A stretch of DNA of 64,000 bases from Eledone cirrhosa (taxonomy: Eukaryota). Shown here piece by piece: positions 6,782 to 45,445 of this stretch. A program made the position numbers and the translations under genes. Position 1 is the stretch's first letter; the number at the start of each line of letters is the position of its first letter. The notes below the pieces were generated by a model, which did not search any database, was not told where the DNA came from, and worked only from the letters and a program-made list of their open reading frames with translations. The DNA is taken from contig OZ024741.1 in the NCBI GenBank assembly GCA_964016885.1, positions 254,262,001-254,326,000 of the forward strand. Direction: 5' to 3'.

Positions 6782-7739
6782 TATTATTATTATGTGATAA
6801 ACAACATAAGGCAATTATTCCATTTACCAGTGGTTTCTTAAAAGCAAAAGGTTTAATTTGTATACGTGTTTAATTTGTATACGTGTGCGTGTTTGTGTAT
6901 GTATGTGTATGTATGTGTTTTTGTATTTGTTTATGTATATTTATGTATGAGAGTGTGTGTATGTGTTTACTATTTTGTACGTATGTATACGTGCTTTTGT
7001 GTGTATTACTTACCACGCGTGTCTGTCCTGTTAGCTGGGTCATGTATCGGTGTCAAAAATTTTTAAAATATATATATATATATATTTTTTTCTTATATTT
7101 ATTTGCGTGCGTGAATATGTAGAGGAGTGCATTCATGTATGTGTATGTATGTACGTTTTGTATGTTTGTGTGAATGTATGTATGTGTATATATATGTGTG
7201 TGTGTATGGCTATATTTGTGTATGTGTATGCTTGTACACACACGTGTGTGTATGTGTGTGTATGTGTATGTGTGTATATGTATATATATGTATATATATA
7301 TATATATATGTACATATATATATGTGTGTGTGTATGCGTGTGTGTGTGTGTGTGTGCGTGCGTGTATATGTATTAATGTATGTATGTGTATATGTGTGTG
7401 TGTATGTGTATGTGAGTGTACGTTTTATATATATGTGTATATGTATATATGTATGCGTACATAAATATATGTATATATGTATGTGTGTGTAAGTATGCTT
7501 TTGGGTTTTTTTGTGTGTGTGTGTTTGCATGCGTAGTTTTATTTTATTTTATTTTTCCTTTCCTTCTCCCTTCTCCAGCCTCACTTTCATATAGATTGCA
7601 TTTTTGTTTTTGTAATCCAAATTCAATAAACAAACCAGAATTTTTTCGTTCTGAGGATTGAAAGCAAAACCTTTTGCTTTTAAGAAACCACTGGTAAATG
7701 GAATAATTGCCTTATGTTGTTTATCACATAATAATAATA
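6782..7739. repeat. 73-bp inverted repeat (arms 6782-6854 and 7667-7739) around a TG/TA low-complexity tract
   Basis: Arms are exact reverse complements; right arm ends in (TA)n. Confidence 0.9.
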
Positions 7740-7882
7740 TATATATATATATGCAAAAGTTTTATTTAAAATTGTTGGGATACAACAAGTAAATATTTTA
7801 TAACTGATATAAGGTACTCGACAAGTTTTTGGAGTAGATATACGATATTAATAAATGGAAACTATATTTATAAAACCATATT

Positions 7883-7947
7883 TATTTCATTATACATATT
7901 TCAGGGATACCAAATTAAAATATGGTATGCCTTCATCAGACAAAATA
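7883..7947 (-). ncRNA. Type I hammerhead ribozyme motif
   Basis: Minus strand: tattttgt-CTGATGA-aggcatacca[loop]tggtatccct-GAAA-tatgta-TA-atgaaata; stem I 8 bp (2 GU), stem II 9/10 bp, short quasi-palindromic stem III. Confidence 0.75.
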
Positions 7948-9367
7948 CAATATATAAACAGTTTTATAAATAATTTTGACGTACCCTATTAAATGCATCC
8001 ATTATTTTTGGAAGCTGTCTGGATAGTGAAATGTTTATATTATTTTATTAGTTATAGTGTTAAGCACAATTAGAAAAAGACGGAGAGAGAGAAGGAGAGA
8101 GAAAGAAGGAGAGAGAGAAAAAGAAAACCTGGAGAAATATCGGAGAGAGAAATGTATGTAGAAAAGAAAGAGATAAATAGATAGGAGGAAATAAAAAAGA
8201 AAGAAAAAAGGAAGAAATAAGAAAAACAAAGGAAAGCAACAGAGAGATAATAAGTCATCATACAGATAGAAAAACTCAAGAAAGAGAAAAAAGAGAGAGG
8301 GGGAGATAGTGACAACTTTACGTCATGTCATTAAGTTGAGTTAACAATTTATATGAAATGAATAATAAAAATATAAATATCAATATTCATGAATGGGACA
8401 TAGATATATAATATGAGAAAATAACATTGTTCAATAAGGACCATATGTTTAGTTTAAAAACTTGAGATCAATATACCAAAATCTGAGTTAATTCCTTCAA
8501 AAAGTACCCTATCTATAAAAATCAGGATACAAATATGTATATATATATATACACACATATGTACGTCCCGAAAATAGAAATTATGTCTACTCAAGCCAAT
8601 AATATAGACACACAAGGCGCAAATGATTTCACTTGATCACTGCTATACACTTGTGTTAGAAAAAGTTCACAGTATATATACATAAATATACGATTAATAT
8701 TCATGTCCTCATATATACGATTACCGTTCATGTATTTAATATTATGCATATCTGCAACATACATCACATATACACACACACATATATACACATACATATG
8801 TATAAATAAATATCTGCGTGAGTCTTCCAGCATCGTTCATGTATATATACAGACATATATACAAACACATAAATAGACCCTATAACACTTTTATATGCAT
8901 GTCAATACACACAAATGGCATTTGTATAGAGATAATCAAACATCAATATATTAATATAGAAATATCAAAGCATTAAATATCTTTAAAACACTATAGAGTA
9001 TCTCAAGTTAAAATAATATGTTTTATATATTTAGTATAGAAATTTATCCTACCTATATCTCAATCAAGATATTGAAAGGGTAGACATATGAAAGTTATTA
9101 GAAGCTATCAGAGTTAAAACAAATTAAAAAAATAAAAATAATTTAAAAGATTTAGAAGACCCAGTGATTCTACGGATAACCTTATATTTAGTATAGAAAT
9201 TTATCTTACGTATATTTTATTTAATACATTGGGATCATATACATTTTAGAGTAGTTTATTATATCCTTGTTTATATTTAGGAAGAAAGTTTAAAATGAAA
9301 AAGGTGAAGGAATCTAATGATTTATCGACAGGTTTCATATATTAACTAAATTTCTTAATTAATTATA

Positions 9368-9688
9368 CTACATTTTAAATTTATATTTAAACGTTGAGTT
9401 CAATCTATGTCTGCAGCAACTGAATAAATTGCTCCTTAAATTAAGGGAATTTTTGGACTTAAATATAAAGAATATTTCTTCTATACAAAGATCACAATGT
9501 TCTGAAGAGGAATTAAAAGGGGTACCTTTTGAGACAATATTCCAAAGCATTGAATATTTAATATTATCTCATTTAAGGTGCCAGAGAAGGCTAGATAGCG
9601 AAGTTGAAGATTTTTCGTTTGGATCTGTGAAATAATTCTTATGATTATTGAAGCGAAGTTTAAATTCTTTCGAGGTGGAACCAACATA
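9368..9688 (-). pseudogene. Penelope-type GIY-YIG endonuclease C-terminal remnant
   Basis: [61 protein letters not shown] in one frame, with one nonsense codon at 9569-9571; Y(I/V)G-T, R-x2-H, CxLC and CRH motifs are typical of PLE endonucleases. Confidence 0.85.
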
Positions 9689-9763
9689 GTTGAAAGAATT
9701 TAAATTAGTTTTAACATTAGTTTTAACAGAAGAATTTAAATTAGTTTTAACATTAGTTTTAAC

Positions 9764-13368
<3,605 letters not shown>

Positions 13369-15125
13369 GCTGTTTTCAGCAATCCTGATATGGCCGATCT
13401 GGGCTGTATCGGCGATGTTACTCCCCATTACACCTTATCGGACATAACGTTTGGCGCCCCTGATGTCTTGGCGGCAATAAAGGAAATCAAGCATAATTCA
13501 GCAGTAGGTCCCGATAGGTTCCCTGCTTGTGTCTTGAAGGCGTGTCAACACCAACTTGCATCTCCTCTTGCCAATCTGTGGCGGAACTCACTGGATGCTG
13601 GATATGTGCCAGAAAACCTTCTATCCCAGTCTGTTGTCCCAGTTTTCAAAAAGGGAAACAAATCCCTTGCCGTGAATTACCGTCCAATCTCACTCACCTC
13701 TCATATCATTAAGGTATTTGAGCGAGTGGTGAGATCGCGATTGACCCACTTCCTTGAGAGTAACAATATGCTGAACTCCAACCAGCATGGATTCCGTAAT
13801 GGAAGGGATTGCCTGACGCAGCTACTGCATCACTTTGATGACATTTTGAGAGCCTTGGAGAGGGTTCCAACACTGATGTTATCTACCTTGATTTCAGCAA
13901 GGCCTTTGACAGGGTTGATCATAACATTCTACTGAGAAAGCTGTCCAATATTGGTGTCACTGGAAAGCTGCTGCAGTGGATCAAGAGCTTCCTGTCAAAC
14001 AGAACCCAACATGTTGTAGTTGAGGGAGTCAAATCAAGCCCAGCCAAAGTCAGTAGTGGGGTCCCACAAGGCACTGTGTTGGGCCCACTTCTCTTCATCA
14101 TCTATATTAATGACATCACTGACATCATCAAACACAGCAACATTAAAATTTTCGCTGATGATTCCAAGCTCCAAAAGGTCATCAATGGCGTGGATGACCG
14201 GATAAGCCTTCAGTCAGACCTACTGGCTGTTACCCAATGGGCAGAAAAGAACAACATGTTACTGAACGAAGACAAATTCGAACTGATCCACTTTGGAAAA
14301 GAGGATGCTCTGAAACTCCCGTACTCCCTTCCCTCCGGGGAAACTCTCGTGGCATCTAACAACATCAGAGACTTGGGAGTAACCGTGGACAGCAACATAA
14401 GCTGGACCACGCATATAAGCAGCAAAGTTGACATGGCCCGCAGAATGTGTTCCTGGATCCTCAGAACCTTCCAGTCGAGAGATTCCCGCACCATTATCCT
14501 TCTCTTCTCTACTTTTGCCCGACCACACCTTGAATACTGTTGTCCACTGTGGTCTCCCCACACGAAACAAAGTATCATGAAACTTGAAGCTCCTCAAAGG
14601 GCAATCACGAAAAAGATAGATGGCATGTCAGATCTTGACTACTGGGGTCGATTAGAAAACCTGAAACTTTACTCACTCCAACGTCGCCGTGAGCGTTATA
14701 TTATCTGCATGATGTGGAAAATGTTCCATCATCACTGCCCAAATGATGTTGGCATCGCCTACAAGATACACCCAAGGCTTGGGCCTCGTGCTATCCGTCC
14801 CATTCAAAAATCTAAATCGTAACTCATAACAACAATACGGCACAATTATTTCACCTCAATCGGCCCTGCTCTCTTCAACATCACACCAGGACACGTCAAA
14901 ACAGAAACTGACCACACAAAATTCAAGAAGTCTTTGAACAAATTCCTCCAAGTAATCCCGGACAAACCACCCACACCCGGATATGTCTCCGCAAACAGTA
15001 ATTCTCTTCTCGAATGGGCCATGGTGCCCAAATCCTGAATTGAAAGACTTCGCCAGGTGGTGCTATTAAGTTAGACATGGCCTGGGCCAATACTGGCCAA
15101 AACATTTCAAAGTTATTCAAAGTTA
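13369..15125 (+). mobile_element. CR1-group LINE, 5'-truncated RT region
   Basis: [55 protein letters not shown]; frameshift near 13860; stop at 14820 where the sister copy has CAA; tail (ttcaaagtta)x2. Confidence 0.9.
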
Positions 15126-17872: not shown

Positions 17873-18222
17873 GGAGGCACATGGCTTAGTGGTTAGAGCA
17901 TTGGCCTTGCAATCGAAAGGTTGTGAGTTCAATTCTCAGACCGGGTGATGTGTTGTTTCCTTGAGCAAGAGACTTTATTTCACATTGCTCCAGTTTACTC
18001 AGCTGTAGAAATGAGATGATAGGGACTGGGGTCTCTATCATTCCACTGCAAAGTGGTCGTGGAGGTGCCACGGCAAAAAAAAGCACCCAGCACTCACTGT
18101 AAATGAGGTTGGTGTTAGGAAGGGCATCCAGCTGTAGAAATCAAGCCAGAATCAGTTCCCGTCCCACCCTTGCAAGCAGGGAAAAACGGACGTAAAATGA
18201 AATGATGATGATGATGATGATG
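17873..18222 (+). mobile_element. tRNA-derived SINE with RTE-derived 3' tail
   Basis: A box TGGCTTAGTGG (17882), B box GAGTTCAATTC (17926), tccttgagcaag core; tail matches RTE UTR ~30315-30465 and RTE tip 27034-27093; ends in (TGA)n. Confidence 0.88.
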
Positions 18223-18403
18223 TACATATATATATATATATATGTACATATATATATATATATATGTACATATATATATATATATATATGTACATATATA
18301 TATATATATATATATGTACATATATATATATATATATATATGTACATATATATATATATATATATAATATAAGATCAAAAGATGGTTAAAGGAGTTCCAT
18401 ATA

Positions 18404-18470
18404 TTTTATTATGCGCATTTCAAAAACAAACATCATCAAACAATAATATTTGTGTTTTCATCAGATAAAA
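18404..18470 (-). ncRNA. Mirror copy of the same hammerhead motif
   Basis: Reverse complement of 18593-18659 in the left palindrome arm. Confidence 0.78.
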
Positions 18471-18528
18471 CAGGAGAACATGATATGAAGGCTAAAAAAC
18501 ACTTGTTGATAGTGCAGTTTTAAATCAA

Positions 18529-18785
18529 CATATGTTGATTTAAAACTGCACTATCAACAAGTGTTTTTTAGCCTTCATATCATGTTCTTCTGTTTTATCT
18601 GATGAAAACACAAATATTATTGTTTGATGATGTTTGTTTTTGAAATGCGCATAATAAAATATATGGAACTCCTTTAACCATCTTTTGATCTTATATTATG
18701 CATACTCCAGTCCCACAAACTGTAGAGTGCTTCTTATCCGATATCTGCATTGCTTTATTGTACTACAATAAAACTCACCTCCTAC

Positions 18786-18788
<3 letters not shown>
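18529..18788 (+). mobile_element. Hammerhead-containing pLTR-like repeat (Penelope-type terminus) with an inverted partial copy upstream
   Basis: Second copy at 29023-29120 plus 30577-30699; ends ctcacctcctaca then (TA)n in both. Confidence 0.7.
18593..18659 (+). ncRNA. Type I hammerhead ribozyme motif
   Basis: ttttat-CTGATGA-[stem II acaaatatta/tgatgtttgt]-GAAA-tgcgca-TA-ataaaa; palindromic stem III; 6-bp stem I. Confidence 0.8.
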
Positions 18789-18888: not shown

Positions 18889-19242
18889 GTATGCATGTAT
18901 ACGTACATACATATATGTATACAGACGTACAGTAGCATGCACATATATATATATATATACATATATATATACATATGCATACAGGTACACATACATATAT
19001 GCACGTATCACATTTAAGTAAGTGCCATACTAAGAGTGAGAAATGAAATTTCGTTTTCATTTTGTTTCAATATATATATATACATTGGAATAAATGCTCT
19101 GAAATAGCGATATATATGTGAATATAGACATAGAATATTCGAAAATATTCTGTATGTTTATAATAAACATTTTGAAGACCTAATCGCTATAGAATAGAAT
19201 ACGTCACGTATTACAATTAGATTCTCGATAAAAGCAAGGGAA

Positions 19243-20835
19243 GTAATCTACGCGTTTCATTCTTGTTAGAAATCATCAGGACTACATATCCAGTGCTTTT
19301 ATCGAGAATGACACAGCTAGAGACTTATAGAATACTTAGCTGTGTACAGGAACTGGTTTGAAAGAGCGGTTGCCGGTCCGGCAGAAATTAGAAATTGGAA
19401 TAAATGCTCTGAAATAGCGATATATATGTGAATATAGACATAGAATATTCGAAAATATTCTGTATGTTTATAATAAACATTTTGAAGACCTAATCGCTAT
19501 AGAATAGAATACGTCACGTATTACAATTAGATTCTCGATAAAAGCAAGGGAAGTAATCTACGCGTTTCATTCTTGTTAGAAATCATCAGGACTACATATC
19601 CAGTGCTTTTATCGAGAATGACACAGCTAGAGACTTATAGAATACTTAGCTGTGTACAGGAACTGGTTTGAAAGAGCGGTTGCCGGTCCGGCAGAAATTA
19701 GAAATTGGAATAAATGCTCTGAAATAGCGATATATATGTGAATATAGACATAGAATATTCGAAAATATTCTGTATGTTTATAATAAACATTTTGAAGACC
19801 TAATCGCTATAGAATAGAATACGTCACGTATTACAATTAGATTCTCGATAAAAGCAAGGGAAGTAATCTACGCGTTTCATTCTTGTTAGAAATCATCAGG
19901 ACTACATATCCAGTGCTTTTATCGAGAATGACACAGCTAGAGACTTATAGAATACTTAGCTGTGTACAGGAACTGGTTTGAAAGAGCGGTTGCCGGTCCG
20001 GCAGAAATTAGAAATTGGAATAAATGCTCTGAAATAGCGATATATATGTGAATATAGACATAGAATATTCGAAAATATTCTGTATGTTTATAATAAACAT
20101 TTTGAAGACCTAATCGCTATAGAATAGAATACGTCACGTATTACAATTAGATTCTCGATAAAAGCAAGGGAAGTAATCTACGCGTTTCATTCTTGTTAGA
20201 AATCATCAGGACTACATATCCAGTGCTTTTATCGAGAATGACACAGCTAGAGACTTATAGAATACTTAGCTGTGTACAGGAACTGGTTTGAAAGAGCGGT
20301 TGCCGGTCCGGCAGAAATTAGAAATTGGAATAAATGCTCTGAAATAGCGATATATATGTGAATATAGACATAGAATATTCGAAAATATTCTGTATGTTTA
20401 TAATAAACATTTTGAAGACCTAATCGCTATAGAATAGAATACGTCACGTATTACAATTAGATTCTCGATAAAAGCAAGGGAAGTAATCTACGCGTTTCAT
20501 TCTTGTTAGAAATCATCAGGACTACATATCCAGTGCTTTTATCGAGAATGACACAGCTAGAGACTTATAGAATACTTAGCTGTGTACAGGAACTGGTTTG
20601 AAAGAGCGGTTGCCGGTCCGGCAGAAATTAGAAATTGGAATAAATGCTCTGAAATAGCGATATATATGTGAATATAGACATAGAATATTCGAAAATATTC
20701 TGTATGTTTATAATAAACATTTTGAAGACCTAATCGCTATAGAATAGAATACGTCACGTATTACAATTAGATTCTCGATAAAAGCAAGGGAAGTAATCTA
20801 CGCGTTTCATTCTTGTTAGAAATCATCAGGACTAC
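19243..20835 (-). ncRNA. Six 43-nt minimal hammerheads (19243-19285, 19553-19595, 19863-19905, 20173-20215, 20483-20525, 20793-20835)
   Basis: Minus strand: gtagtc-CTGATGA-tttctaacaagaat-GAAA-cgcg-TA-gattac. Confidence 0.9.
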
Positions 20836-21340
20836 ATATCCAGTGCTTTTATCGAGAATGACACAGCTAGAGACTTATAGAATACTTAGCTGTGTACAGG
20901 AACTGGTTTGAAAGAGCGGTTGCCGGTCCGGCAGAAATTAGAAATTGGAATAAATGCTCTGAAATAGCGATATATATGTGAATATAGACATAGAATATTC
21001 GAAAATATTCTGTATGTTTATAATAAACATTTTGAAGACCTAATCGCTATAGAATAGAATACGTCACGTATTACAATTAGATTCTCGATAAAAGCAAGGG
21101 AAGTAATCTACGCGTTTCATATGCTATAGCGATTAGGTCTTCAAAATGTTTATTATAAACATACAGAATATTTTCGAATATTCTATGTCTATATTCACAT
21201 ATATATCGCTATTTCAGAGCATTTATTCCAATTTCTAATTTCTGCCGGACCGGCAACCGCTCTTTCAAACCAGTTCCTGTACACAGCTAAGTATTCTATA
21301 AGTCTCTAGCTGTGTCATTCTCGATAAAAGCACTGGATAT

Positions 21341-22003
21341 GTAGTCCTGATGATTTCTAACAAGAATGAAACGCGTAGATTACTTCCCTTGCTTTTATCG
21401 AGAATCTAATTGTAATACGTGACGTATTCTATTCTATAGCGATTAGGTCTTCAAAATGTTTATTATAAACATACAGAATATTTTCGAATATTCTATGTCT
21501 ATATTCACATATATATCGCTATTTCAGAGCATTTATTCCAATTTCTAATTTCTGCCGGACCGGCAACCGCTCTTTCAAACCAGTTCCTGTACACAGCTAA
21601 GTATTCTATAAGTCTCTAGCTGTGTCATTCTCGATAAAAGCACTGGATATGTAGTCCTGATGATTTCTAACAAGAATGAAACGCGTAGATTACTTCCCTT
21701 GCTTTTATCGAGAATCTAATTGTAATACGTGACGTATTCTATTCTATAGCGACTAGGTCTTCAAAATGTTTATTATAAACATACAGAATATTTTCGAATA
21801 TTCTATGTCTATATTCACATATATATCGCTATTTCAGAGCATTTATTCCAATTTCTAATTTCTGCCGGACCGGCAACCGCTCTTTCAAACCAGTTCCTGT
21901 ACACAGCTAAGTATTCTATAAGTCTCTAGCTGTGTCATTCTCGATAAAAGCACTGGATATGTAGTCCTGATGATTTCTAACAAGAATGAAACGCGTAGAT
22001 TAC
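21341..22003 (+). ncRNA. Three 43-nt minimal hammerheads (21341-21383, 21651-21693, 21961-22003)
   Basis: gtagtc-CTGATGA-tttctaacaagaat-GAAA-cgcg-TA-gattac; predicted cleavage after GUA at 21377, 21687 and 21997. Confidence 0.9.
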
Positions 22004-22129
22004 TTCCCTTGCTTTTATCGAGAATCTAATTGTAATACGTGACGTATTCTATTCTATAGCGATTAGGTCTTCAAAATGTTTATTATAAACATACAGAATA
22101 TTTTCGAATATTCTATGTCTATATTCACA

Positions 22130-22161
<32 letters not shown>

Positions 22162-22181
22162 CATATATATATATATATATA

Positions 22182-22228
<47 letters not shown>

Positions 22229-22230
<2 letters not shown>

Positions 22231-22911: not shown

Positions 22912-25900
22912 ATCATCATCAACGTTTAACGTCCGTGTTCCACGCTTGCATGGGTTTGGACGGGGGTATTCCCACTTGAGGCAAGAGTGATTGTCTTGCT
23001 CGCATAGGACTGTCTGGCAGGTTTTCTACAGTTGGATGCACTTCCTAACACCAACCACATTTACAGTGTGGGTCTGGGAGGTTTTTACCGTTTTGCCTAC
23101 ACGGCCACATTACAGCGTGGACTGTGTGTTTTTTGGTCGTGACACCTACACGATCTCATTTGTTTCGGCCTGGATGGTGTGGCACCAACATAACTTTACA
23201 TAGGAGGGGTTGGTGTGGATGGGGTGGAGTGGGTGGGACGGGGGTGTATTTTGTTATGGATGCCTACTGGCTGTAGTAGGTTTTACTATGTATTTAGGTA
23301 AGGCGGGTCTTCTCTATTACTGAGTACCGCCAAAGGTCTCGGTCCAGTGACATTGTCTTGGAGAGGTGTAAGTGTGTGAGGTCGGAGTTTATCAGCTCGT
23401 CCCAGGATTTTCTAGGTCTGCCTATTCCGTGGCTACCGTCTATCTTTATTGCCCTGCACTTTGTTATACAGCTATCGACTTTCATGCGCATCACATGTCC
23501 ATACCAACGTAGCCTTCTCTCGAGTAAACAACATCTGATCCCTCTTATTTCTAATTTTTTCCTTAGTTCGTTCATGCTTTGCCGTTCACGTATATTACTA
23601 TTACACATCCAGCGGAGCATGCAAGCTTCATTCCTCTCTAGTCTGCGTATATTATCTGCAAACAATGCCCAGGTCTCACTGCCATGCAACATTGCTGTTC
23701 GTATGCAGGCATCATACAACCTGCCTTTCATTTTTAGGGAGAACCCTCTAGCGGCTAATAGTGGTATAATCTATCTGAACTTTTTCCATCCCGTTCTGAC
23801 TCTAGCTACTGTACTTTCAGAGCACCCTCCCCCACTGCTGATTTTGTCACCCAGGTAACGGAAGCTGTCCACTATTTCTATAGAGCCCTCTGCGCAATTG
23901 TAAGAGCTAGTATTTTGTGGGCACTTGCTGCTACTTATTGCACCAGAGCAGCGCACACATGTAAAATCTATGTTCTTAGTTAGCTTACCTGTGATCCCAC
24001 TACATCTTTTATGCACCCATACTTTGCATTTGGGACATAAAATGGAGTTTCTACCTATGCCTTTCCTACACACTGAGCATGGCCATTTCCCGGAAGGGAC
24101 CGCCGCCTTATTTTCTTTCCTATAAACTAGAACTTTAGTCTTAGCCAGGTTAATTTTAAGGCCTTTTGATTCTAGGCAGTGCTTCCATGTTTGGAATTTC
24201 TTCTCTAGCTCGGCCATTGATTCAGCTATGAGTGTCAGGTCGTCTGCGTATAGGAGTTCCCATGGGCAGCCGGTCTTGAACTCCTCTGTTATAGCCTGAA
24301 GGGCAATAATAAATAGCAGGGGGCTGAGAACAGAGCCCTGATGGACGCCAACTTTTACCCTAAACTCTTCACTATATTCGTTGTTAATTCTAACCTTGCT
24401 GACTGTTTCTTTATACATGGCTTGTATAGCTCTCACAAGCCATTCGTCGACACCTAGTTTTCTAAGGGCTCACCAGATAATGGAACGGGGGGACTCTGTC
24501 AAAGGCTTTCTCCAAGTCGACAAAAGCTAAGTAGAGGGGTTTACCTTTAGCTAGGTACTTCTCCTGTAGTTGACGTAAAATGAAAAGAGCGTCTGTGGTA
24601 CTTTTTCCTGACACAAACCCGAACTGCATTTCATCTAGGTCAATTCTCTCTCTGATTAGTTGCGCTATTACTTTTTCCGTGACCTTCATGACCTGGTCGA
24701 TTAAATTAATGCCTCTATAGTTACTCCTGTCTAGGGCATCTCCTTTACCCTTATAACAGTTAACGATGATGCTGCTATGCCAGTCCTTCGGAACAACCCC
24801 ATTCTGTACGACTTGGTTAACTATCCGGGTGACCATGGTGTGTCCCACCGTGCCAGAGGCTTTCAGCATCTCAGCAACTATTTCCGAAGGCCCAGCCGCC
24901 TTACCCGTCTTCATATCCTTGATTGCCTTACTTATTATACTACCCTCGACTAACACTGCTGGTCCCTCTATTGGGTCGATGTGGGGGAGACTGTCTTTCT
25001 CCCATTTATTCTCCTCATTTAGTAGCCTTTCACAGTGACACTTCCAAGCTACCTTCTTATTAGTGTCGGTGATGGCAAGTACGCCGTCATCATTAAGTAC
25101 ACACTTCTCCCCGACAATATCACGGTTTTCCTTGACACATTGCCTAGCAATCCTGAACACCTCACGTTTTTGGTCCTCGCGTTGTAGAACATGCTTGAAC
25201 TTTCTTTCCTCTGCTTCCCTCCTGGCCACTTGATAGTCTTCTCTACTTCCCCCATCCCACCATACTTTCCAAGACTGCTTTTTGGCCTTAATTGACCCCT
25301 CCACCTTACTGTTCCACCACCATGTTACTCTCCTCCTGCCAACAGGCCTGCTCCAGCCACAGACTTCGTCTGTCGCCATCAGCAGGTTTGCTTTCAGAAA
25401 TTCCCACTGTCCCTCTATATTGTCCGACTCTAAATGCTCTTCCTTACTGTCGAAAGCATCAAGTAATATGCTTTGAAATTTATTTCTGGCTGTGGGGTCC
25501 TTTAGCTTCCATATTTTTCTCCTGAGGATAGTCCTCTTCTGCTGTCGAGTACGTCTCGTCCTGACTATGAGGTCGCTAATTATCAGTCTATGTTGGGAGG
25601 TGCATTCTTCATGAGGGAGGGATTTAGTGTTTACAACAGACACTCTGTCACGTCTTCTGGTAAGGATATAATCTACCTGGCTTGTGTGTTCCCCGGATCT
25701 ATAGGTGATCAGGTGATTGTCACGTTTTTTGAAGTTAGTGTTACAGATAGTTAGGTTATTTGCGTCACAGAATTCCAGGATTCTGGAGCCTTCCTCATTT
25801 CTAGTACCAAACCCATAGCCTCCATGGATTTCGTCGTAGCCATCACAATGTTGTCCAATGTGACAATTTAGGTCGCCTGCAATAATTATATAGTCACTGT

Positions 25901-26419
25901 CGGTTATTTGGGAGGTAGTGAGCATCAGTGTCTCATAGAATCTGTCTTTTATAGCGCCGGGCAGTCCGGATTGGGGTGCGTACGCAGATATTACTGTCAC
26001 CGTAGTTCTATTGAGGACAAGTCTTATTTTAATTATTCTGTCGTTCACTCTATTTACGTCTATTATCTTATCTGCCCACTTTTCTGCTACCATGATTCCT
26101 ACTCCACCCTGCCCATCGTCGTTTCCCACCCAGAAAAGCTTATAACATCGTTTTTTACCCTCAATGAATCTAGCAGACCCACCCCTCCTCCTGGTCTCTT
26201 GAATACAACAAACATCGACCTCCTTACGTTCAAGCATTTCTACAACCTCGTTAGCGCGACCCTTTAAGGTGCCTACATTTATGGTACCAACTCTGAAGTT
26301 TTGGATTGCGTTTGGAGGGTGGGGCGGGGGGGGCGGGGGGAGAAGGGGTTATGTTAGCCGTCCGCGGTCGAAACAAGGAGGAGTGCTCGCATTCTCGTCC
26401 ACAAGGTGAATTTGTCTTT
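22912..26419 (-). mobile_element. RTE family A, near full-length (APE endonuclease + RT), two frameshifts
   Basis: APE motifs CIQET, SAYAPQ, GDLN, VDYIL, SQHRL in 24462-26237; RT continues in 23771-24436 and 23294-23731; frameshifts near 24487 and 23771; both ends in (TA)n. Confidence 0.95.
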
Positions 26420-29120: not shown

Positions 29121-30575
29121 ATGGCTTGTGAAAGCGGTACAAGCCATGTATAGGGGAGCAGTCAGCAAAGTTAGGATTAGAAATGAGTATAGCGAGGAAT
29201 TTAGCGTACAGGTTGGGGTCCACCAGGGCTCTGTTCTTAGCCCTCTCCTGTTCATCATAGTCCTGCAGGCAATAACGGAGGAGTTTAAGACCGGATGCCC
29301 ATGGGAACTCCTGTATGCTGATGACCTCGCACTCATAGCTGAATCTATGGTAGAACTAGAGAATAAATTCCAAACCTGGAAGCAGGGACTAGAAAGAAAG
29401 GGTCTCAAAGTCAACATGACAAAGACTAAGGTCCTTGTAATTAGACGAGAAACAGAACCCAGATCCCCTCAGGGAAATGGCCTTGCTCAGTATGTAGGAA
29501 AGGTGTAGGTAGGAACTCCATTCTCTGCCCCAAATGCAAACAATGGGTACACAAGAGATGTAGCGGGATCTCAGGAAGCTTAATTAGAGATGTAGGATTC
29601 ACATGCAGCAGCTGTGCTGAAACAGCAAGCAGCAAACAGCCACAGGAAACAAGTACCACCAATCTCTGTGAGGGCCCTGTAGAAACAGTAGACAGCTTCT
29701 GCTACCTAGGTGACCGAATTAGCAACGGAGGTGGGTGTTCAGAAAGTACAATAACTAGAGTAAGAACGGGATGGAAGAAGTTTAGGGAACTAATACCACT
29801 GCTAGCTGCAAAAGGCTTCTCCCTCAGAATGAAAGGCAGACTGTATGATGCGTGTATCCGAACAGCGATGTTGCATGGTAGTTAAACCTGGGCGCTGAAG
29901 GTGGAAGACTTACGTAGATTAGAGAGAAACGAAGCCTGCATGCTCCGATGGATGTGTAACAGTAATATACGTGAACGACAAAGCATAAATGAATTGAGAG
30001 AGAGACTGAGCATAAGAGGAATCAAATGCTGCGTGCAGGAGAGGCGGTTACGCTGGTATGGACATGTGATGCGTATGAAGGATGACAGCTGCATAAAAAG
30101 GTGCAGAGCACTAGAAGTTGATGGAAACCGCGGAGTGGGGAGACCCAAGATGACTTGGGATGAGGTGATAAAAGCCGACCTTACCCAACTACACCTCTCA
30201 AAGTCAATGACACACGACCGTGACTTCTGGCGTCACGCAGTAATACAGGGTACCCGACCTCCCATGGGTACATGCTGAAGCATATAAACAATATGCCCCC
30301 CCCCCCACCGCAAGGTGGTCGTGGAGGTGCCACGGCAAAAAAGCACCCAGCCCACACTGTAAAGTGGACGTGTAGGCGCCACGAAAAAGCACCCAGCACT
30401 CACTGTAAATGAGGTTGGTGTTAGGAAGGGCATCCAGCTGTAGAAATCAAGCCAGATCAGTTCCTGTATGAGCAAGGCATGGTCAGCCGACCAGACACTG
30501 CCCACAACAGGACAACCCGTCTAACCCATGCTAGCGTGGAAGAACGGACGTAAAACGGTGATGATGATGATGATG
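29121..30575 (+). mobile_element. RTE family C, 5'-truncated and disrupted
   Basis: GVHQGSVLSPLLF, LYADDL, Cys finger, RRLRWYGHV; frameshift near 29450 and stop at 29883; 3' UTR with (TGA)n. Confidence 0.92.
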
Positions 30576-31295: not shown

Positions 31296-31809
31296 TTTTA
31301 TTTTATTTTATTTATTTATTTAGGTGAGATTTTAGCTCATATTTAGCTTAGATTTAGGTGAGAATTAGCTTAGATTTAGCTTACACTTATGTGAGATTTA
31401 GCTTTATATTTAGCTTAGATTTAGTTGAGATTTAGGCTATAATTCGCAGAGATTTAGGTGAGAATTAGCTCATATTTAGCTTAGATTTAGGTGAGATTTA
31501 GCTTAGATTTAGCTTAGATTTAGCTGAGATTTAAGGTTAGAGTTAGTTTATATTTAGCTTAGATTTAGATGGGAATTAGCTTATATTTAGGTTAGATTTA
31601 GGTGAGATTTAGATTATGTTTAGCTTAGATTTAGCTTAGATTTAGGTGAGATTTATCTTAGATTTAGCTTAGATTTAGGTGAGATTCAGCTTAGATTTAG
31701 CTTATATTTAAGTGAGATTTACATTAGATTTATCTTAGATTTAGCTGAGATTTAGCTTTCATTTAGCTTAAATTTAGGTAAGATTTAGCTTATATATAGT
31801 TCAGATTAG

Positions 31810-32035
31810 TGAAGGCGTGTGGGCTGAGTGGTTAGGACCAATTGGATTCGCAATCGTAAGGTTGTGAGTTCGATTCCTGGACCAGGCGATGCGTTATGTC
31901 CTTGAGCAAGGACACTTTATTTCACGTTGCTCCTTCTACCTGGAGTTGCGACCGATAGATAGTATTAGCAATTGGAAAGACCAACGGAAACATTGTTCCC
32001 TCGGTCCGATTTGACGAAAGTCGATCGTTGCTTTT
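31810..32035 (+). mobile_element. tRNA-derived SINE inserted in the satellite
   Basis: A box (g)GCTGAGTGG, B box GAGTTCGATTCC, tccttgagcaag core; flanked by the direct repeat tatagttcagatt (31795-31807, 32036-32048). Confidence 0.85.
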
Positions 32036-35020
32036 TATAGTTCAGATTTACGTGAGATTTAGCTTAGATTTTAGGTGAGATTTAGCTTAGATTTAGGGTC
32101 AGAATTAGCTTAGATTTAGGTGAGATTTAGTTTATATTTAGCTCAGATTTAGGTGAGATTTAGGTGAGAATCTGCCTTAGATTTAGTTTAGATTTATGTG
32201 AGATTTAGCTTAGATTTAGCTGAGATTTAGGTGAGAATCCGCTTAGCTTCAGCTTAGATTTAGGTGAGATTTAGCTAATATTTAGCTGAAATTTATGTGA
32301 GATTTAGGTTAGATTTAGCTTAAGTGATTATATTTTAAGTGAGATTTACATTAGATTTAGATTAGATTTTTGATGAGATTTAGCTTAGATTTAGGTGAGA
32401 TTTAGCTTAGATTTAGGTGAGATTTAGTTTATATTTAGCTCAGATTTAGGTGTGATTTAGGTGAGGTTTAGCTTAGATTTAGCTTAGATTTAGGTGAAAT
32501 TTAGCTTAGGACTTAGCTTAGATTTAGCTGAGATTTAGGTTAGATTTTAGTTTATATTTAGGTTAGATTTAGATGGGATTTTAGCTTATGTTTTAGCTTA
32601 GATTTTAGGTGAGATTTAGCGTATATTTAGCTTAGATTTAGGTGAGATTTAGCTTAGATTTAACTTAAATTTAGGGTGACATTTAGTCTATATTTAGCTT
32701 AGATTTAGGTGAGATTTAGCTTATATTTAGCTTAAATTTAGTTGAGATTTAGCTTATATTTAGCTTAGATTCAGGTTCGATTTAGCTTATATTTAGCTTT
32801 AGATTTATGTGTGATTTAGCTTAGATTTAGGTGAGATTTAGCTTATATTTAGCTTAGATTTAGGTGAGATTTACCTTAGATATAGCTTAGATTTAGGTGA
32901 GATTTTAGCTTATATTTACCTTAGATTTATGTGAGATTCAGTTAAGATTTAGCTTTAGATTTAAGTAAGATTTAGATTATATTTTAGCTTAGATATAAGT
33001 TAGATTTAGCTTATACTTAGCTTAGATTTAGGGGGAGATTCAGCTTATATTTAGCTTATATTTAGGTGAGATTTAGCTTATATTTAGCTGAGATTTAGGT
33101 GAGATGTAAACTTAGATTTAGCTTAGATTTATGTGGACATTTAGCTTATATTTAGCTTAGATTTAGGTGAGATTTAGCTTATATTTAACGTAGATTTAGG
33201 TGAAACTTAGCCTATATTTAGCTTAGATTCAGGTTTCGATTTAGCTTATATTTAGTTTAGATTTAGGTGAGATTTACCTTAGATATAGCTTAGATTTTAG
33301 GTGAGATTTAGCTTATATTTACCTTAGATTTATGTGAGATTCAGTGTAGATTTAACTTAGATTTAGGTAAGATTTAGATTATATTTAGCTTAGATATAAG
33401 TGAGATTTAGCTTATACTTAGCTTAGATTTAGCTGAGATTTAGCTTAGATTTATGTTAGATTTTGCTTAGATTTAGCTTTGATTTAGGTGAGATTGAGCT
33501 TATATTTAACTTAGATTTAGGTGAGATTTTAGCTTAGATTTAGCTTATATTTATGTGAGATTTACATTAGATTTATATTATATTATAGTGAGATTTAACT
33601 TAGATTTAGCTTAGATTTATGTGAGATTTATCTTAGATTTGCATAGATTTAGGTGAGACTAGCTTAGATTTAGCTTAGATTTAGGTGAGCTTTAGCTTAT
33701 ATTTAGCTTAGATTTAGCTGAGATCTAGCTTTGATTTCAGTTGAGATTTAGGTGAGATTTAGTTAAGATTTATATTAATATGAGATTTAGCTTATATTTA
33801 GCTTAGATTTAAGTGAGATTGATCTTATATTAGCTTAGAGTTAGGTGATATTTAGCTTAGATTTAGCTTAGATTTAGGTGAGATTTAACTTAGATTTAGA
33901 CTAGATTTATGTGACATGTAGCTTATATTTAGCTTAGATTTTAGGTGAGATTTAGCTTATATTTAACGTTAGATTTAGGGGAAATTTAGCCTATATTTAG
34001 CGTAGATTTAGGTGAGATTTAGCTTACATTTAACTTAGATTTAGGTGAGATTTAGGCTATATTTAGCTTAGATTTAGATTTACTTTTTCTTTAATTTATT
34101 TCTTTATTTCTTTATTTCTTTATTTCATTTCATTTCATTTCATTTCATTTTCATTTCATTTCATTTCATTTCATTTCATTTCATTTCATTTCATTTTCAT
34201 ATCATTTCATTTCATTTTCTTTTCTTTTACTTTATTTTATTTTATTTTTATTTTATTTTTATTTTATTTTATTTATTTATTTATTTAGGTGAGATTTAGC
34301 TTAGATTTAGGTGAGATTTAGTTTATATTTAGCTTAGATTTAGGTGAGAATTAGCTTAGATTTAGCTTACACTTATGTGAGATTTAGGCTTATATATAGC
34401 TTAGATTTAGGTGAGATTTACGCTATATTTCGCTCAGATTTAGGTGAGAATTAGCTCATATTTAGCTTAGATTTAGCTTTAGCTTAGATTAGTTTTAGCT
34501 TAGATTTAGCTGAGATTTAGGGTAGAGTTAGTTTTATATTTAGCTTAGATTTAGATGGGAATTAGCTTATATTTAGGTTAGATTTAGGTGAGATTTAGAT
34601 TATGTTTAGCCTTAGATTTAGCTTAGATTTAGGTGAGATTTTACGCTATATTTCGCTCAGATTTAGGTGAGAATTAGCTCATATTTAGCTTAGATTTAGC
34701 TTAGATTTAGCTTAGATTTAGCTTAGATTTAGCTGAGATTTTAGGGTAGAGTTAGTTTATATTTAGCTTAGATTTTAGATGGAATTAGCTTATATTTTAG
34801 GTTAGATTTAGGTGAGATTTAGATTATGTTTTAGCTTAGATTTAGCTTAGATTTAGGTGAGATTTATCTTAGATTTAGCTTAGATTTAGGTGAGATTCAG
34901 CTTAGATTTAGCTTATATTTAAGTGAGATTTACATTAGATTTATCTTAGATTTAGCTGAGATTTAGCTTTCATTTAGCTTAAAATTTAGGTAAGATTTAG
35001 CTTATATATAGTTCAGATTA

Positions 35021-35246
35021 GTGAAGGCGTGTGGCTGAGTGGTTAGAGAATTGGATTCGCAATCGTAAGGTTGTGAGTTCGATTCCTGGACCAGGCGATG
35101 CGTTATGTCCTTGAGCAAGACACTTTATTTCACGTTGCTCCTTCTACCTGGAGTTGCGGACCGATAGATAGTATTAGCAATTGGAAAGACCAACGGAAAC
35201 ATTGTTCCCTCGGTCCCGATTTGACGAAAGTCGATCGTTGCTTTTT
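35021..35246 (+). mobile_element. Duplicate of the satellite-embedded SINE
   Basis: Same sequence and same flanks, ~3.2 kb downstream. Confidence 0.85.
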
Positions 35247-38200
35247 ATAGTTTCAGATTTACGTGAGATTTAGCTTAGATTTAGGTGAGATTTTAGCTTA
35301 GATTTAGGGTTCAGAATTAGCTTAGGATTTAGGTGAGATTTAGTTTATAATTAGCTCAGATTTAGGTGAGATTTAGGTGAGAATCAGCTTAGATTTAGTT
35401 TAGATTTATGTGAGATTTAGCTTAGATTTAGCTGAGATTTAGGTGAGAATCCGCTTAGCTTCAGCTTAGATTTAGGTGAGATTTAGCTAATATTTAGCTG
35501 AAATTTATGTGAGATTTTAGGTTAGATTTAGCTTAAGTGACTATATTTAAGTGAGATTTTACATTAGATTTAGATTAGATTTTTGGTGAGATTTAGCTTA
35601 GATTTAGGTGAGATTTAGCTTAGATTTAGGTGAGATTTAGTTTATATTTAGCTCAGATTTAGGTGTGATTTAGGTGAGGTTTAGCTTAGATTTAGCTTAG
35701 ATTTAGGTGAAATTTAGCTTAGGACTTAGCTTAGATTTAGCTGAGATTTAGGTTAGATTTAGTTTTATATTTAGCTTAGATGTAGAATGGTATTTTAGCT
35801 TATTTTTAGCTTAGATTTAGGTGAGATTTAGCGTATATTTAGCTTAGATTTTAGGTGAGATTTTAGCTTAGATTTAACTTAAATTTAGGTGACATTTAGT
35901 CTATATTTAGCTTAGATTTAGGTGAGATTTAGCTTATATTTAGCTTAAATTTAGTTGAGATTTAGCTTATATTTAGCTTAGATTCAGGTTTCGATTTAGC
36001 TTATATTTAGCTTAGATTTATGTGTGATTTAGCTTAGATTTAGGTGAGATTTAGCTTATATTTAGCTTAGATTTAGGTGAGATTTACCTTAGATATAGCT
36101 TAGATTTTAGGTGAGATTTAGCTTATATTTACTTAGATTTATGTGAGATTCAGTTTTAGATTTAGCTTAGATTTAGGTAAGATTTAGATTATATTTAGCT
36201 TAGATATAAGTGAGATTTAGCTTATACTTAGCTTAGATTTAGGGGAGATTCAGCTTATATTTAGCTTAGATTTAGGTGAGATTTTGCTTATATTTAGCTT
36301 AGATTTAGGTGAGATGTAAACTTAGATTTAATTTTAGATTTAGGTAAATTGAGCTTATATTTAGCTTAGATTTATTTGAAATTTAGCTGAGGACTTAGCT
36401 TAGATTTAGGTTAGATTTATCTTGTATTTAGCTTAGATTTAGCTGAGATTTAGGTGAGATATCAGCTTAGCTTCAGCTTAGATTTAGGTTATATTTAGCT
36501 CAGATTTAGCTTATATTTAGGTGAGATTTAACTTAGATTTAGGTGAGATTTAGTTTATATTTAGCTCAGATTTAGGTGAGATTTAGGTGAAAAATCAGCT
36601 TAGATTTAGCTTAGATTTATGTGAGAATTAGCTTAGATTTAGCTTAGATTTAGGTGAGATTTAGCTTATATTTAACTTAGATTTAGGTGTGATTTATCTT
36701 AGATTTAGCTTATATTTATGTGAGATTTACATTAGATTTTATTTTATATTAAGGTGAGATTTAACTTAAATTTAGCTTTGATTTATTTGAGATTTATCTT
36801 AGATTTAGCTTAGATTAGCTTAGATTTTAGGTGAGATTTAGGCTATATTTAGCTTAGATTTAGATTTACTTTACTTTAATTTATTTCTTTATTTCTTATT
36901 TAATTTCATTTCATTTCATTTCATTTCATTTCATTTCATTTCATTTCATTTCATTTCATTTCATATCATTTCATTTCATTTTCTTTTCTTTTATTTTATT
37001 TTATTTTATTTTATTTTATTTTATTTTTATTTTATTTTATATTATATTTCATTTTTATTTTATTTTTATTTTATTTTATTTTAATTTTATTTTATTTATT
37101 TATTTAGGTGAGATTTAGCTCATATTTAGCTTAGATTTTAGGTGAGATTTAGCTTAGAATTAGCTTATATTTACGTGAGATTTACATTAGATTTAGCTTA
37201 GATTTAGCTGAGATTTAGCTTTCATTTAGCTTAAATTTAGGTAAGATTTAGCTTATATATAGTTCAGATTATTGAAGGCTTAAATGTAGATTATATTTAA
37301 GAGAGATTTACATTACATTTAGATTATATTTTGGTGAGATTTAGCTTAGATTTAGGTGAGATGTAGTTTATATTTAGCTCAGATTTAGGTGAGATTTAGG
37401 GGAAAATCAGCTTAGATTTAGGTGAGATTTAGCTTAAATTTAGCTTAGATTTAGGTTAGATTTAGCTTAGATTTAGGTGAGATTTAGATTAGATTTAGCT
37501 TATATTTAAGTGAGATTTACATTAGATTTAGCTTAGATTTAGCTGAGATTTATCTTACATTTAGCTTAGATTTAGGTAAGATATAGCTTATATTTAGTTT
37601 AGATTTAGGTGAGATTTAGCTTAGATTTAGCTTAGATTTAGGTGATATTTAGCTTAGATTTAGGTGAGATTTACTTTATATTTAGCTCAGATTTAGGTGA
37701 GATTTAGGTGAGAATCAGCTTAGATGTAGCTTAGATATAGCTTAGATTTATGTGAGATTTAGCTTAGATTTAGATGAGCTTTAGCTTATATTTAGCTTAG
37801 ATTTAGGTGATATTTAACTTAGATTTAGCTTAGATTTAGGTGAGATTTAGCTTAGATTTAGCTTAGATTTAGGTGAGATTGAGCTTTGATTTAGGTGAGA
37901 TTTAGCTTAGATTTCGGTGAGATTTAGTTTATATTTAGCTTAGATTTAGGTGAGAATTAGCTTAGATTTAGCTTATACTTATGTGAGATTTAGCTTATAT
38001 TTAGCTTAGATTTAGGTGAGATTTAGGCTATATTTAGCTTAGATTTAGATTTACTTTACTTTAATTTATTTCTTTATTTCTTAATTTCTTTATTTTATTT
38101 CATTTCATTTCATTTCATTTCATTTCATTTCATTTTCTTTTATTTTATTTTATTTTATTTTATTTTCTTTTCTTTTCTTTTCTTTTCTTTTCTTTTCTTT

Positions 38201-39832
38201 TCTTTTCTTTTCTTTTCTTTTCTTTTCTTTTCTTTTCTTTTCTTTTCTTTTCTTTTCTCTTCTTTTCTTTTCTTTTCTTTTCTTTTATTTTATTTTATTT
38301 TGTTTTAAATTTCATTTTATTTTCTATTATTTTATTTTATTTTATTTATTTATTTATTTATTTATTTAGGTGAGATTTAGCTTATATTTAGCTTAGATTT
38401 AGGTGAGATTTAGGTTAGCTTTAGTTTAGATTTAGGTGAGATTCAGATTAGATTTAGCTTATATTTAAGTGAGATTTACATTAGATTTAGCTTAGATTTA
38501 GCTGAGATTTAGCTTACGATTAGCTTAGATTTAGGTAAGATTTAGCTTATATATAGTTTAGATTAATGTGAGATTTAGCTTAGATTTAGGTGAGATTTAG
38601 CTTAGATTTAGCTTACAATTAGCTGAGATTCTGCTTAGAGTTAGCTTATATTTAAGTGAGATTTACATTAGATTTAGCTTAGATTTAGCTGAGATTTAGC
38701 TTACATTTAGCTTATATTTAGGTGAGATTTAGGTGAGATTTAGCTTATATATATAGTTTAGATTTATGTGAGATTTAGCTTAGATTTAGGTGAGATTTAG
38801 CTTAGATTAAGCTTAGATTTAGTTGAGATTTAGCTTAGATTTAGGTGAGATTTAGTTTATGTTTAGCTCAGATTTAGGTGAGATTTAGGGGAAAATCAGC
38901 TTAGATTTAGGTGAGATTTAGCTTAAATTTAGCTTAGATTTAGGTTAGATTTAGCTTAGATTTAGGTGAGATTTAGATTAGATTTAGCTTATATTTAAGT
39001 GAGATTTACATTAGATTTAGCTTAGATTTAGCTGAGATTTATCTTACATTTAGCTTAGATTTAGGTAAGATATAGCTTATATTTAGCTTAGATTTAGGTG
39101 AGATTTAGCTTAGATTTAGCTTAGATTTAGGTGATATTTAGCTTAGATTTAGGTGAGATTTAGTTTATATTTAGCTCAGATTTAGGTGAGATTTAGGTGA
39201 GAATCAGCTTAGATGTAGCTTAGATATAGCTTAGATTTATGTGAGATTTAGCTTAGATTTAGATGAGCTTTAGCTTATATTTAGCTTAGATTTAGGTGAG
39301 ATTTAACTTAGATTTAGCTTAGATTTAGGTGAGATTTAGCTTAGATTTAGCTAAGATTTAGGTGAGATTTAGCTTAGATTTAGCTTAGATTTAGGTGAGA
39401 TTGAGCTTTGATTTAGGTGAGATTTAGCTTAGATTTCGGTGAGATTTAGTTTATATTTAGGTGAGAATTAGCTTAGATTTAGCTTATACTTATGTGAGAT
39501 TTAGCTTATATTTAGCTTAGATTTAGGTGAGATTTAGGCTATATTTAGCTTAGATTTAGATTTACTTTACTTTAATTTATTTCTTTATTTCTTAATTTCT
39601 TTATTTTATTTCATTTCATTTCATTTCATTTCATTTTCTTTTATTTTATTTTCTTTTCTTTTCTTTTCTTTTCTTTTCTTTTCTTTTCTTTTCTTTTCTT
39701 TTCTTTTCTTTTCTTTTCTTTTCTTTTCTTTTCTTTTCTTTTCTTTTCTCTTCTTTTCTTTTCTTTTCTTTTCTTTTCTTTTATTTTATTTTGTTTTAAA
39801 TTTCATTTTATTTTCTATTATTTTATTTTATT

Positions 39833-39867
<35 letters not shown>

Positions 39868-42010: not shown

Positions 42011-42045
<35 letters not shown>

Positions 42046-45000: not shown

Positions 45001-45445
45001 GAGATTCAGATTAGATTTAGCTTATATTTAAGTGAGATTTACATTAGATTTAGCTTAGATTTAGCTGAGATTTAGCTTACAATTAGCTTAGATTTAGGTA
45101 AGATTTAGCTTATATATAGTTTAGATTAATGTGAGATTTAGCTTAGATTTAGGTGAGATTTAGCTTAGATTTAGCTTAGATTTAGGTGAGATTAAGCTTA
45201 GAGTTAGCTTATATTTAAGTGTGATTTACATTAGATTTAGCTTAGATTTAGCTGAGATTTAGCTTACATTTAGCTTAGATTTAGGTGAGATTTAGGTGAG
45301 ATTTAGTTTATGTTTAGCTCAGATTTATGTGAGATTTAGGTGAGAATCAGCTTAGATTTAGCATAGATTTAGCTTAGATTTATGTGAAATTCAGCTTAGA
45401 TTTAGCTTAGATTTAGGTAAGATTTAGCTTATATTTAGCTCATAT

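What the first reader, a model, noticed from the sequence alone, without database searches (positions are those of the whole stretch)
21378..21687. The 310-nt monomer is mostly hairpins, and its longest helix closes only across the cleavage site
Seen in the cut-to-cut monomer: aatacg/cgtatt; atagcgat...atcgctat enclosing agaatatt-TTCG-aatattct (UUCG loop, extended by imperfect pairing); tgccgg/ccggca; acacagcta/tagctgtgt; and a perfect 16-bp attctcgataaaagca/tgcttttatcgagaat flanking the ribozyme. That helix pairs sequence near the two ends of the linear monomer. Inference: it would hold the ends together for ligation into a branched, viroid-like circle.
Basis: partly seen in the sequence, partly recalled or inferred. 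Interest (0 to 1): 0.75.

Follow-up and report, generated by a model that had tools for sequence, protein, structure and literature searches.

The report
Ribozyme clamp of a two-armed retrozyme
This 310-base repeat is one unit of a very abundant non-coding jumping element with a predicted self-cutting RNA motif; its long helix is kept by paired mutations in a sister family, and the back-to-back way its copies are inserted likely records a Penelope-type enzyme copying a small RNA circle into DNA.

Summary
The fold is real (z -4.4 linear, -4.8 circular), but 'mostly hairpins' overstates it: 57-60% paired against 54% in shuffles. The 16-bp helix is the distal part of helix I of a type I hammerhead. 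A diverged sister family keeps it: 7 of 13 aligned pairs change on both sides, 92% paired. The unit belongs to a known kind, animal non-LTR retrozymes, with about 18,900 cores in this genome. More telling is the insertion footprint. Arrays sit back to back (58 divergent, 0 convergent junction rows), in (TA)n, with one arm ending at unit position 130-139 and the other at 165: the Penelope 'inverted copy plus tail' signature. Inner junctions ignore the cut site, and private mutations are fixed on both arms, which points to one circular template. Cleavage, ligation, expression and the partner enzyme are not shown; published retrozymes are circularised mainly by RtcB. This scan already reported the two-arm footprint for this family on other DNA; the covariation test is what this report adds.

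The parts
21378..21687 (+). Cut-to-cut 310-nt retrozyme unit (family A)
21347..21377 (+). Type I hammerhead core: CUGAUGA, 4-bp helix II with a U.U pair at its base, GAAA, minimal helix III, GUA cut site; repeated at 21657-21687 and 21967-21997, and six times on the minus arm
   Evidence: weak Rfam Hammerhead_HH9 match, 19.2 bits, E 0.054, below gathering score
21371..21376 (+). Palindromic ACGCGT helix III/loop 3; predicted to pair between two hammerheads (dimer cleavage)
   Evidence: duplex -7.5 kcal/mol; PMC4209133 passage; inference
21378..21383 (+). Proximal helix I, strand that begins the monomer (pairs with 21651-21656 in the monomer, with 21341-21346 in the precursor)
21390..21405 (+). 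16-bp distal helix I, arm near the monomer 5' end
21627..21642 (+). 16-bp distal helix I, arm near the monomer 3' end
21414..21428 (+). Small hairpin; register not kept in family B (29% of cells paired), which has a shifted 5-bp hairpin here
21436..21522 (+). Long branched hairpin; outer 6 bp near-invariant, inner 8-bp stem 21475-21494 covaries (2 of 8 pairs two-sided)
21507..21542 (+). 'Tail': the 26-35 nt between the two fixed insertion ends (unit positions 130-139 and 165), inferred reverse-transcription start sites; contains the motif shared with family B
21526..21573 (+). 5-bp helix (21526-21530/21569-21573) enclosing the 21553-21565 hairpin; both kept in family B (97% and 90% paired), no two-sided changes
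21591..21625 (+). 9-bp hairpin specific to family A (51% of cells paired across A+B)
19084..21120 (-). Left arm, 6.6 identical units, outer end at unit position 165 (long end)
21120..22136 (+). Right arm, 3.3 units, outer end at unit position 139 (short end); head-to-head junction at 21120
19070..19083 (.). (TA)n target, left side
22137..22230 (.). (TA)n target, right side

Best explanation
The stretch is one unit of a young, very abundant animal non-LTR retrozyme, and its 16-bp helix is a covarying extension of hammerhead helix I that likely clamps the ribozyme in the multimeric transcript and likely keeps the two ends of the cut monomer together until a host ligase closes it. Steps. Shown: tandem units with a complete type I hammerhead core; the helix and its conservation; back-to-back arrays in (TA)n with two fixed outer ends; whole insertions carrying one haplotype. 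Inferred: arrays are transcribed as multimers; hammerheads with the weak palindromic helix III cut as dimers; the monomer refolds with helix I closed on itself; an RtcB-type ligase seals it; a Penelope-like RT/GIY-YIG protein cuts both strands of (TA)n and primes from both DNA 3' ends at two fixed internal sites of one RNA circle (positions 130-139 and 165), rolls round it several times, and the two cDNAs are joined by short microhomology.
For: Fold z -4.4/-4.8. Distal helix I on 14 aligned units (2 family A, 12 family B): 13 pairs, 7 with changes on both sides, 92.3% cells paired; whole-structure covariation 0.220 against 0.151 shuffled (0 of 500) and at most 0.087 when slid; RNAalifold finds the same helix unprompted. 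Within family A, 7 of 9 locus-wide substitutions at paired sites keep the pair (17% expected for all substitutions, 51% for transitions), the two breaks being single loci; the only core position that varies locus-wide is N7. 18,874 cores against 29 in the reversed control. 58 divergent and 0 convergent junction rows in 85 stretches, one locus counted twice. 19 of 19 two-armed insertions with both ends resolved have one short and one long end. Genome-wide: 1,306 long ends and 524 short ends (pattern misses about two thirds) run into TA, against 1 for a control position. An RT-type ORF family in the same genome has the same geometry, 6 of 7 two-armed copies with one short and one long end, as described for PLEs (PMC8557442; PMC11167929). 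Only 2 of 116 inner-junction positions lie within 5 nt of the cut site (3.7 expected if uniform), so the template had no 5' end there. 39 of 57 two-armed stretches carry a variant fixed on both arms, 8 of them private to one locus, such as one change in 25 of 25 units.
Against: No cleavage, ligation or RNA was observed. Rfam gives no match at gathering score. In the 2026 preprint only 1 of 9 tested frog retrozyme dimers cleaved in vitro. In the precursor the helix forms between what become two different monomers, which could favour re-joining multimers over circles. The covariation rests on about three subfamilies of one genome, on a sequence-only alignment and on a structure taken from one of its rows, so it is not a significance test. 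Covariation shows that the helix is selected, not what for. No partner PLE sharing sequence with the unit was found. 18 of 44 short ends had no long end within 16 kb by the exact pattern, 4 of 26 insertions were one-armed, and one array is a mosaic of two haplotypes (L199). Purified Poseidon protein uses uncleaved linear RNA and does not need hammerhead cleavage (PMC11167929).
Confidence: 0.75

Rival explanations
1. The 16-bp helix is selected only to nucleate and stabilise the ribozyme for cleavage in the precursor (weak core: U.U at helix II, 1-2 bp helix III); it plays no part in ligation. The rest of the model stands.
For: Local register wins with p 0.95 in the multimer. The helix does not touch the ends. 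Family B, with a longer helix III, also keeps it, so it is a general part of this ribozyme.
Against: The same helix is the outermost stem of the linear monomer's MFE (p 0.95 in the circular ensemble); 6 bp of A-U/G-U-rich proximal helix I alone would hold the ends weakly (inference).
Confidence: 0.3
2. The template is a long, uncut linear transcript of a parent array; no circle is needed, and the hammerhead is largely idle.
For: Explains read-through of the cut site and uniform inner junctions. Poseidon RT uses uncleaved RNA in vitro. One mosaic array exists.
Against: Variants private to one locus are fixed in all units of both arms (8 cases, up to 25 units), which needs a one-unit template read repeatedly; the core is conserved across locus-wide variants and U3-A8 replaces C3-G8 in part of family B.
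Confidence: 0.15
3. An extra-genomic, viroid-like RNA that replicates or spreads on its own and was written into this genome.
For: 20 public runs under 17 organism labels in 16 studies hold most of its words; six of the seven runs laid give a 280-340-nt contig 99-100% like the unit.
Against: All four runs tested with a host-type SINE control also hold that SINE (42, 251, 19,547 and 3 contigs, the last figure including the unit's own contig), as expected for relatives or carry-over. No hammerhead on the antisense strand. A 340-nt cyclic contig arises from tandem DNA as well as from a circle. An older sister family shows long residence in this lineage.
Confidence: 0.05
4. A satellite DNA amplified at the DNA level; the RNA fold is incidental.
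For: Tandem, homogeneous arrays.
Against: More than 1,300 dispersed insertions with two fixed ends and an inverted join, an intact ribozyme core and two-sided pair changes including G-U wobbles.
Confidence: 0.03

Closest known systems
Metazoan non-LTR retrozymes (Cervera and de la Pena 2020, PMC7229834, parts 2-4 of 6 read; review PMC7761336, passages; Li, Clavereau and Pollet, bioRxiv 10.64898/2026.07.22.740005, parts 1-3 of 5 read)
   Same: Tandem non-coding units of 150-450 bp, GC under 50% (34% here), one type I hammerhead per unit, thousands of copies, self-paired predicted fold, PLEs in the same genome.
   Different: The parts read do not describe head-to-head arrays, two fixed ends or a (TA)n target, and name no cephalopod. 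Expression, cleavage and circles were shown there and not here.
Axolotl HHR_Amex1 / HHR_Amex2 and newt satellite hammerheads (PMC7229834)
   Same: One-base-pair helix III with a palindromic tetraloop (as Amex1) and a U.U mismatch at the base of helix II (as Amex2); both cut well only as dimers.
   Different: Both weak features sit in one motif here; loop 1-loop 2 contacts were not tested.
Penelope-like elements with C-terminal GIY-YIG endonuclease (PMC8557442, passages; PMC11167929, parts 1-2 of 4 read)
   Same: Inverted 5'-truncated copy, a 30-40-bp tail on one end only, (TA)n target, hammerhead upstream of the ends; the tail equals the stretch between two RT start sites.
   Different: No ORF; the whole element is one repeating unit read many times round; no sequence match to the one PLE family examined, whose tail is about 90 nt.
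[quoted passage not shown]
   Same: Size, branched fold, hammerhead processing of multimers.
   Different: Genome-encoded with a DNA phase; a hammerhead in one polarity only; the ribozyme is not locked by an alternative pairing in the predicted circle.

Membership tests
Metazoan non-LTR retrozyme | Tandem units of about 150-450 bp, at least two consecutive, each with a type I hammerhead | tested here: met
   310-bp units, 6.6 + 3.3 copies, 9 cores
Metazoan non-LTR retrozyme | Complete hammerhead core with helices I-III | tested here: met
   Pattern scan; Rfam HH9 only E 0.054, below gathering
Metazoan non-LTR retrozyme | No protein, no LTR/PBS/PPT, GC under 50% | tested here: met
   No frame of 120 aa within the array; GC 34%; no LTR structure at array ends; PBS/PPT not searched specifically
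Metazoan non-LTR retrozyme | Many dispersed copies | tested here: met
   18,874 cores, 1,306 long ends
Metazoan non-LTR retrozyme | Stable self-paired monomer | tested here: met
   z -4.4/-4.8; covariation
Metazoan non-LTR retrozyme | Self-cleavage and accumulation as circular RNA | not testable with these tools
   Only indirect genomic signs
Metazoan non-LTR retrozyme | Target-site duplication, when present longer than 4 bp | tested here: inconclusive
   Both flanks are (TA)n, so a duplication cannot be read
Non-autonomous partner of a Penelope-like element | Inverted 5' copy, one-sided tail, (TA)n target | tested here: met
Non-autonomous partner of a Penelope-like element | Sequence similarity to the pLTR of an autonomous PLE | tested here: inconclusive
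   One PLE family of very many compared, no match at its ends; 90 motif hits with another continuation showed no recurring partner
Viroid / viroid-like replicon | No DNA phase; RNA-to-RNA replication with ribozymes usually in both polarities | tested here: not met
   Thousands of genomic copies; no antisense hammerhead by the pattern used; RNA replication itself not testable

The most novel reading that the evidence does not exclude
The 310-nt circle is not confined to this genome's life cycle: it moves between species as RNA, so that a sequence identical to this unit turns up in other organisms, and this genome caught it in a burst of Penelope-driven rolling-circle insertion. The 16-bp clamp would then be the closing stem of a transmissible animal circular RNA.
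Probability: 0.05. Interest if true: 0.9.

Novelty: new member of a known kind. Interest (0 to 1): 0.5.

Why it matters
How animal retrozymes are mobilised, and whether the circle is the template, has been proposed but not shown in the papers read. This family gives fixed, mappable start sites, a covarying structure around them and hundreds of young insertions, so both questions become direct experiments: a defined RNA, defined ends, a defined target and helix mutants with compensatory rescue. The hairpin-rich fold on its own is ordinary for the class.

Tried and rejected
Rfam at gathering score over the window: 0 matches. DNA search of the genome with the whole unit returned nothing because common words are skipped; patterns were used instead. 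Sequencing runs: no RNA holder listed; this says nothing on expression. Run X24 laid 0 reads, which the tool marks as no test. A 49-nt, 75% AT-rich likeness between the unit and a PLE 3' region (E 0.11) was rejected: it lies about 600 nt before that element's ends. Search for an autonomous partner through the shared tail motif: 90 hits, no recurring new continuation. A-to-I editing as the source of fixed variants: 9 A>G against 5 T>C of 32, not telling. The 678-aa PLE frame hit no Pfam family, no meaningful NCBIfam family and no PDB chain; its RT nature rests on homologues (one at 37% identity has RVT_1, E 9e-6, below cut-off) and on RT and GIY-YIG motifs read by eye (recalled); its clade was not determined. 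Lunse et al. 2017 is not held, and the supplement of PMC7229834 could not be read: it may show extended helix I or inverted copies in other retrozymes. Literature searches for octopus/cephalopod retrozymes and for inverted, tailed retrozyme insertions (listings only unless stated) gave no paper describing them; subscription journals are not covered.

Full report
Observation. The unit 21378-21687 runs from one predicted hammerhead cut to the next (core 21347-21377). It folds at -72.5 kcal/mol linear and -67.8 circular, z -4.4 and -4.8, with 0 of 150 shuffles as low in each case. The 16-bp perfect repeat exceeds all 500 shuffles (maximum 14). The paired fraction, 0.57-0.60, is close to the shuffled 0.54, and the interior alone gives z -2.5. 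The antisense strand folds equally well. So the fold is real, but it is dominated by helix I.

What the long helix is. It continues hammerhead helix I: 6 bp proximal, 3 bp, then 16 bp. In the natural 3.3-unit stretch it forms only in the local register round each uncut ribozyme (p 0.95 for all three, 0.0 for the six other arm pairings). In the cut monomer it is the outermost stem. After a multimer is cut, the arms would lie on neighbouring monomers and must exchange to close one monomer (inference). The ribozyme has a U.U pair at the base of helix II and a palindromic, 1-2-bp helix III, features that in axolotl go with dimer-dependent cleavage (PMC7229834; PMC4209133). Rfam sees it only weakly.

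Covariation. Family A copies are about 99% alike. A diverged copy beside one locus led to an older sister family B of 313-320 nt (5,787 hits of a shared motif; 385 hits of one core pattern). I aligned 2 A and 12 B units, chosen as those of the 31 stretches examined that ran about a full unit from the shared motif. RNAalifold recovers distal helix I without being told. With the family-A structure imposed: distal helix I, 13 pairs, 7 two-sided, 92% paired; the other three pairs of the 16 fall at a gapped edge and are 33-71% paired; inner stem 21475-21494, 2 of 8 two-sided; helix II, 2 of 4; the outer 6 bp of the long hairpin and the 21526-21573 helices are kept without two-sided change; the 9-bp hairpin (51%) and the aatacg hairpin (29%) are not kept in register. 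The score beats 500 shuffles and all slid versions, but related sequences and a structure taken from one row inflate such tests; 'further pair types' did not exceed the shuffles (57 against 60). Within family A, 7 of 9 locus-wide changes at paired sites keep the pair.

The element. The window holds 6.6 units on the minus strand and 3.3 on the plus strand, head to head at 21120, between TA runs. The genome holds 4,203 exact and 18,874 loose cores (controls 0 and 29). This meets the sequence criteria for animal non-LTR retrozymes. The host looks cephalopod: the named homologues of a neighbouring PLE family are from Argonauta and Octopus.

Insertion footprint. Of 26 insertions read in the first batch, 19 had two arms with both outer ends resolved, and all 19 had one end at unit position 130-139 and one at 165; 2 two-armed ones were unresolved, 4 were one-armed, 1 ran into a gap. 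Of 23 short ends, 16 join TA at about position 130 and 7 at 132-139, so the tail is 26-35 nt. Genome-wide, 1,306 long ends and 524 short ends (the pattern sees only the second kind) meet TA, against 1 at a control position. On the first 231.6 Mb of C1, 26 of 44 listed short ends have a divergent long end within 16 kb; long-long and short-short divergent pairs number 0. Over 85 stretches (60 of them picked by the long-end pattern), 58 junction rows are divergent and none convergent; 43 of 58 overlap by 1-31 nt. Family B ends at the homologous two places. A protein-coding family in the same genome, with a 678-aa frame, shows the same design with ends about 50 and 140 nt after its hammerhead, 6 of 7 two-armed copies having one of each. 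This is the inverted copy and one-sided tail described for Penelope-like elements, where the tail is the stretch between two RT start sites.

Why a circle. Inner junction positions are spread evenly, 2 of 116 within 5 nt of the cut: the RT did not fall off at a cleaved 5' end, and arrays read through the cut site many times. 39 of 57 two-armed stretches have a variant fixed on both arms and I saw none with different fixed haplotypes on the two arms of one insertion; 8 variants are private to one locus yet fill all covering units. A one-unit template read repeatedly explains this; a long linear multimer does so poorly. One single-arm array is a mosaic of two haplotypes (L199), which suggests occasional template switching. 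This is indirect: no RNA was seen.

Other organisms. 20 runs under 17 organism labels hold the unit. Of seven runs laid, six gave one contig of 280-340 nt with 0-1 difference from known variants. All four tested against a host-type SINE also hold it, so relatives or carry-over are the plain reading; depths of contigs are not copy numbers, and the question stays open only at low odds.

Known and new. The class, its circles and RtcB ligation are published; a PLE link was argued from co-occurrence and pLTR similarity. The two-arm, two-end footprint was not in the parts of these papers that I read nor in seven literature searches. Earlier agents of this scan reported it for this same 310-nt family and for others, seen after my own analysis; these are unchecked notes, not support. 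What this report adds is the test of the fold: the clamp and the hairpin next to the inferred RT start are conserved, two other hairpins are not.

Verdict. Observation largely right, interpretation partly supported. A new member of a known kind with a useful mechanistic footprint. Interest 0.5.

Noticed in passing
window 18365-18788: Second hammerhead element as a near-perfect palindrome (centre 18531/18532; cores 18599-18653 + and 18464-18410 -, palindromic TGCGCA helix III); arms end about 44 and 135 nt after the cut, in (TA)n: another Penelope-type end.
   Followed up: partly
window 7750-9760 (-): 3' part of a broken PLE: GIY-YIG-like frame at about 9390-9700 with one stop, hammerhead 7939-7891, long end in TA; intact relatives with 575-678-aa frames elsewhere.
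   Followed up: partly
window 7651-7740 (+): A further type I hammerhead (CUGAGGA, 11-bp helix II) ending at the same TA run from the other side.
   Followed up: no
L056, L068, L070, L073, L080, L081, L083: Part of family B has U3-A8 in place of C3-G8 in the hammerhead core, a core covariation also reported for Schistosoma PLE hammerheads; B has a longer helix III than A.
   Followed up: partly
L199: Array that switches between two family-A haplotypes (3 and 2 units), a possible template switch between circles.
   Followed up: no
L036:3598-3871: 272 nt of foreign sequence captured between the two arms at the inner junction.
   Followed up: no
L038:5490-6890: Another tandem family with a period of about 615 bp ending in TA with a similar '...CTAAT' end; a GC-rich PLE-like end with a hammerhead-like core lies on the other side of the same retrozyme insertion.
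   Followed up: no
window 31318-45440 and 45446-64000: Large 11-bp and 39-bp satellites filling half of the window.
   Followed up: no
window 936-1526, 13380-14820, 23294-26348, 29122-30278: Fragments of non-LTR retrotransposon ORFs (endonuclease and RT motifs read by eye; family names recalled as RTE-like and CR1/L2-like), several interrupted by TA runs.
   Followed up: no
window 17873-18225: tRNA-like SINE copy between TA runs (read by eye).
   Followed up: no
whole array 19084-22136: Read-through transcription across a head-to-head array would give a kilobase-long double-stranded hairpin, a possible substrate for silencing or editing (inference).
   Followed up: no
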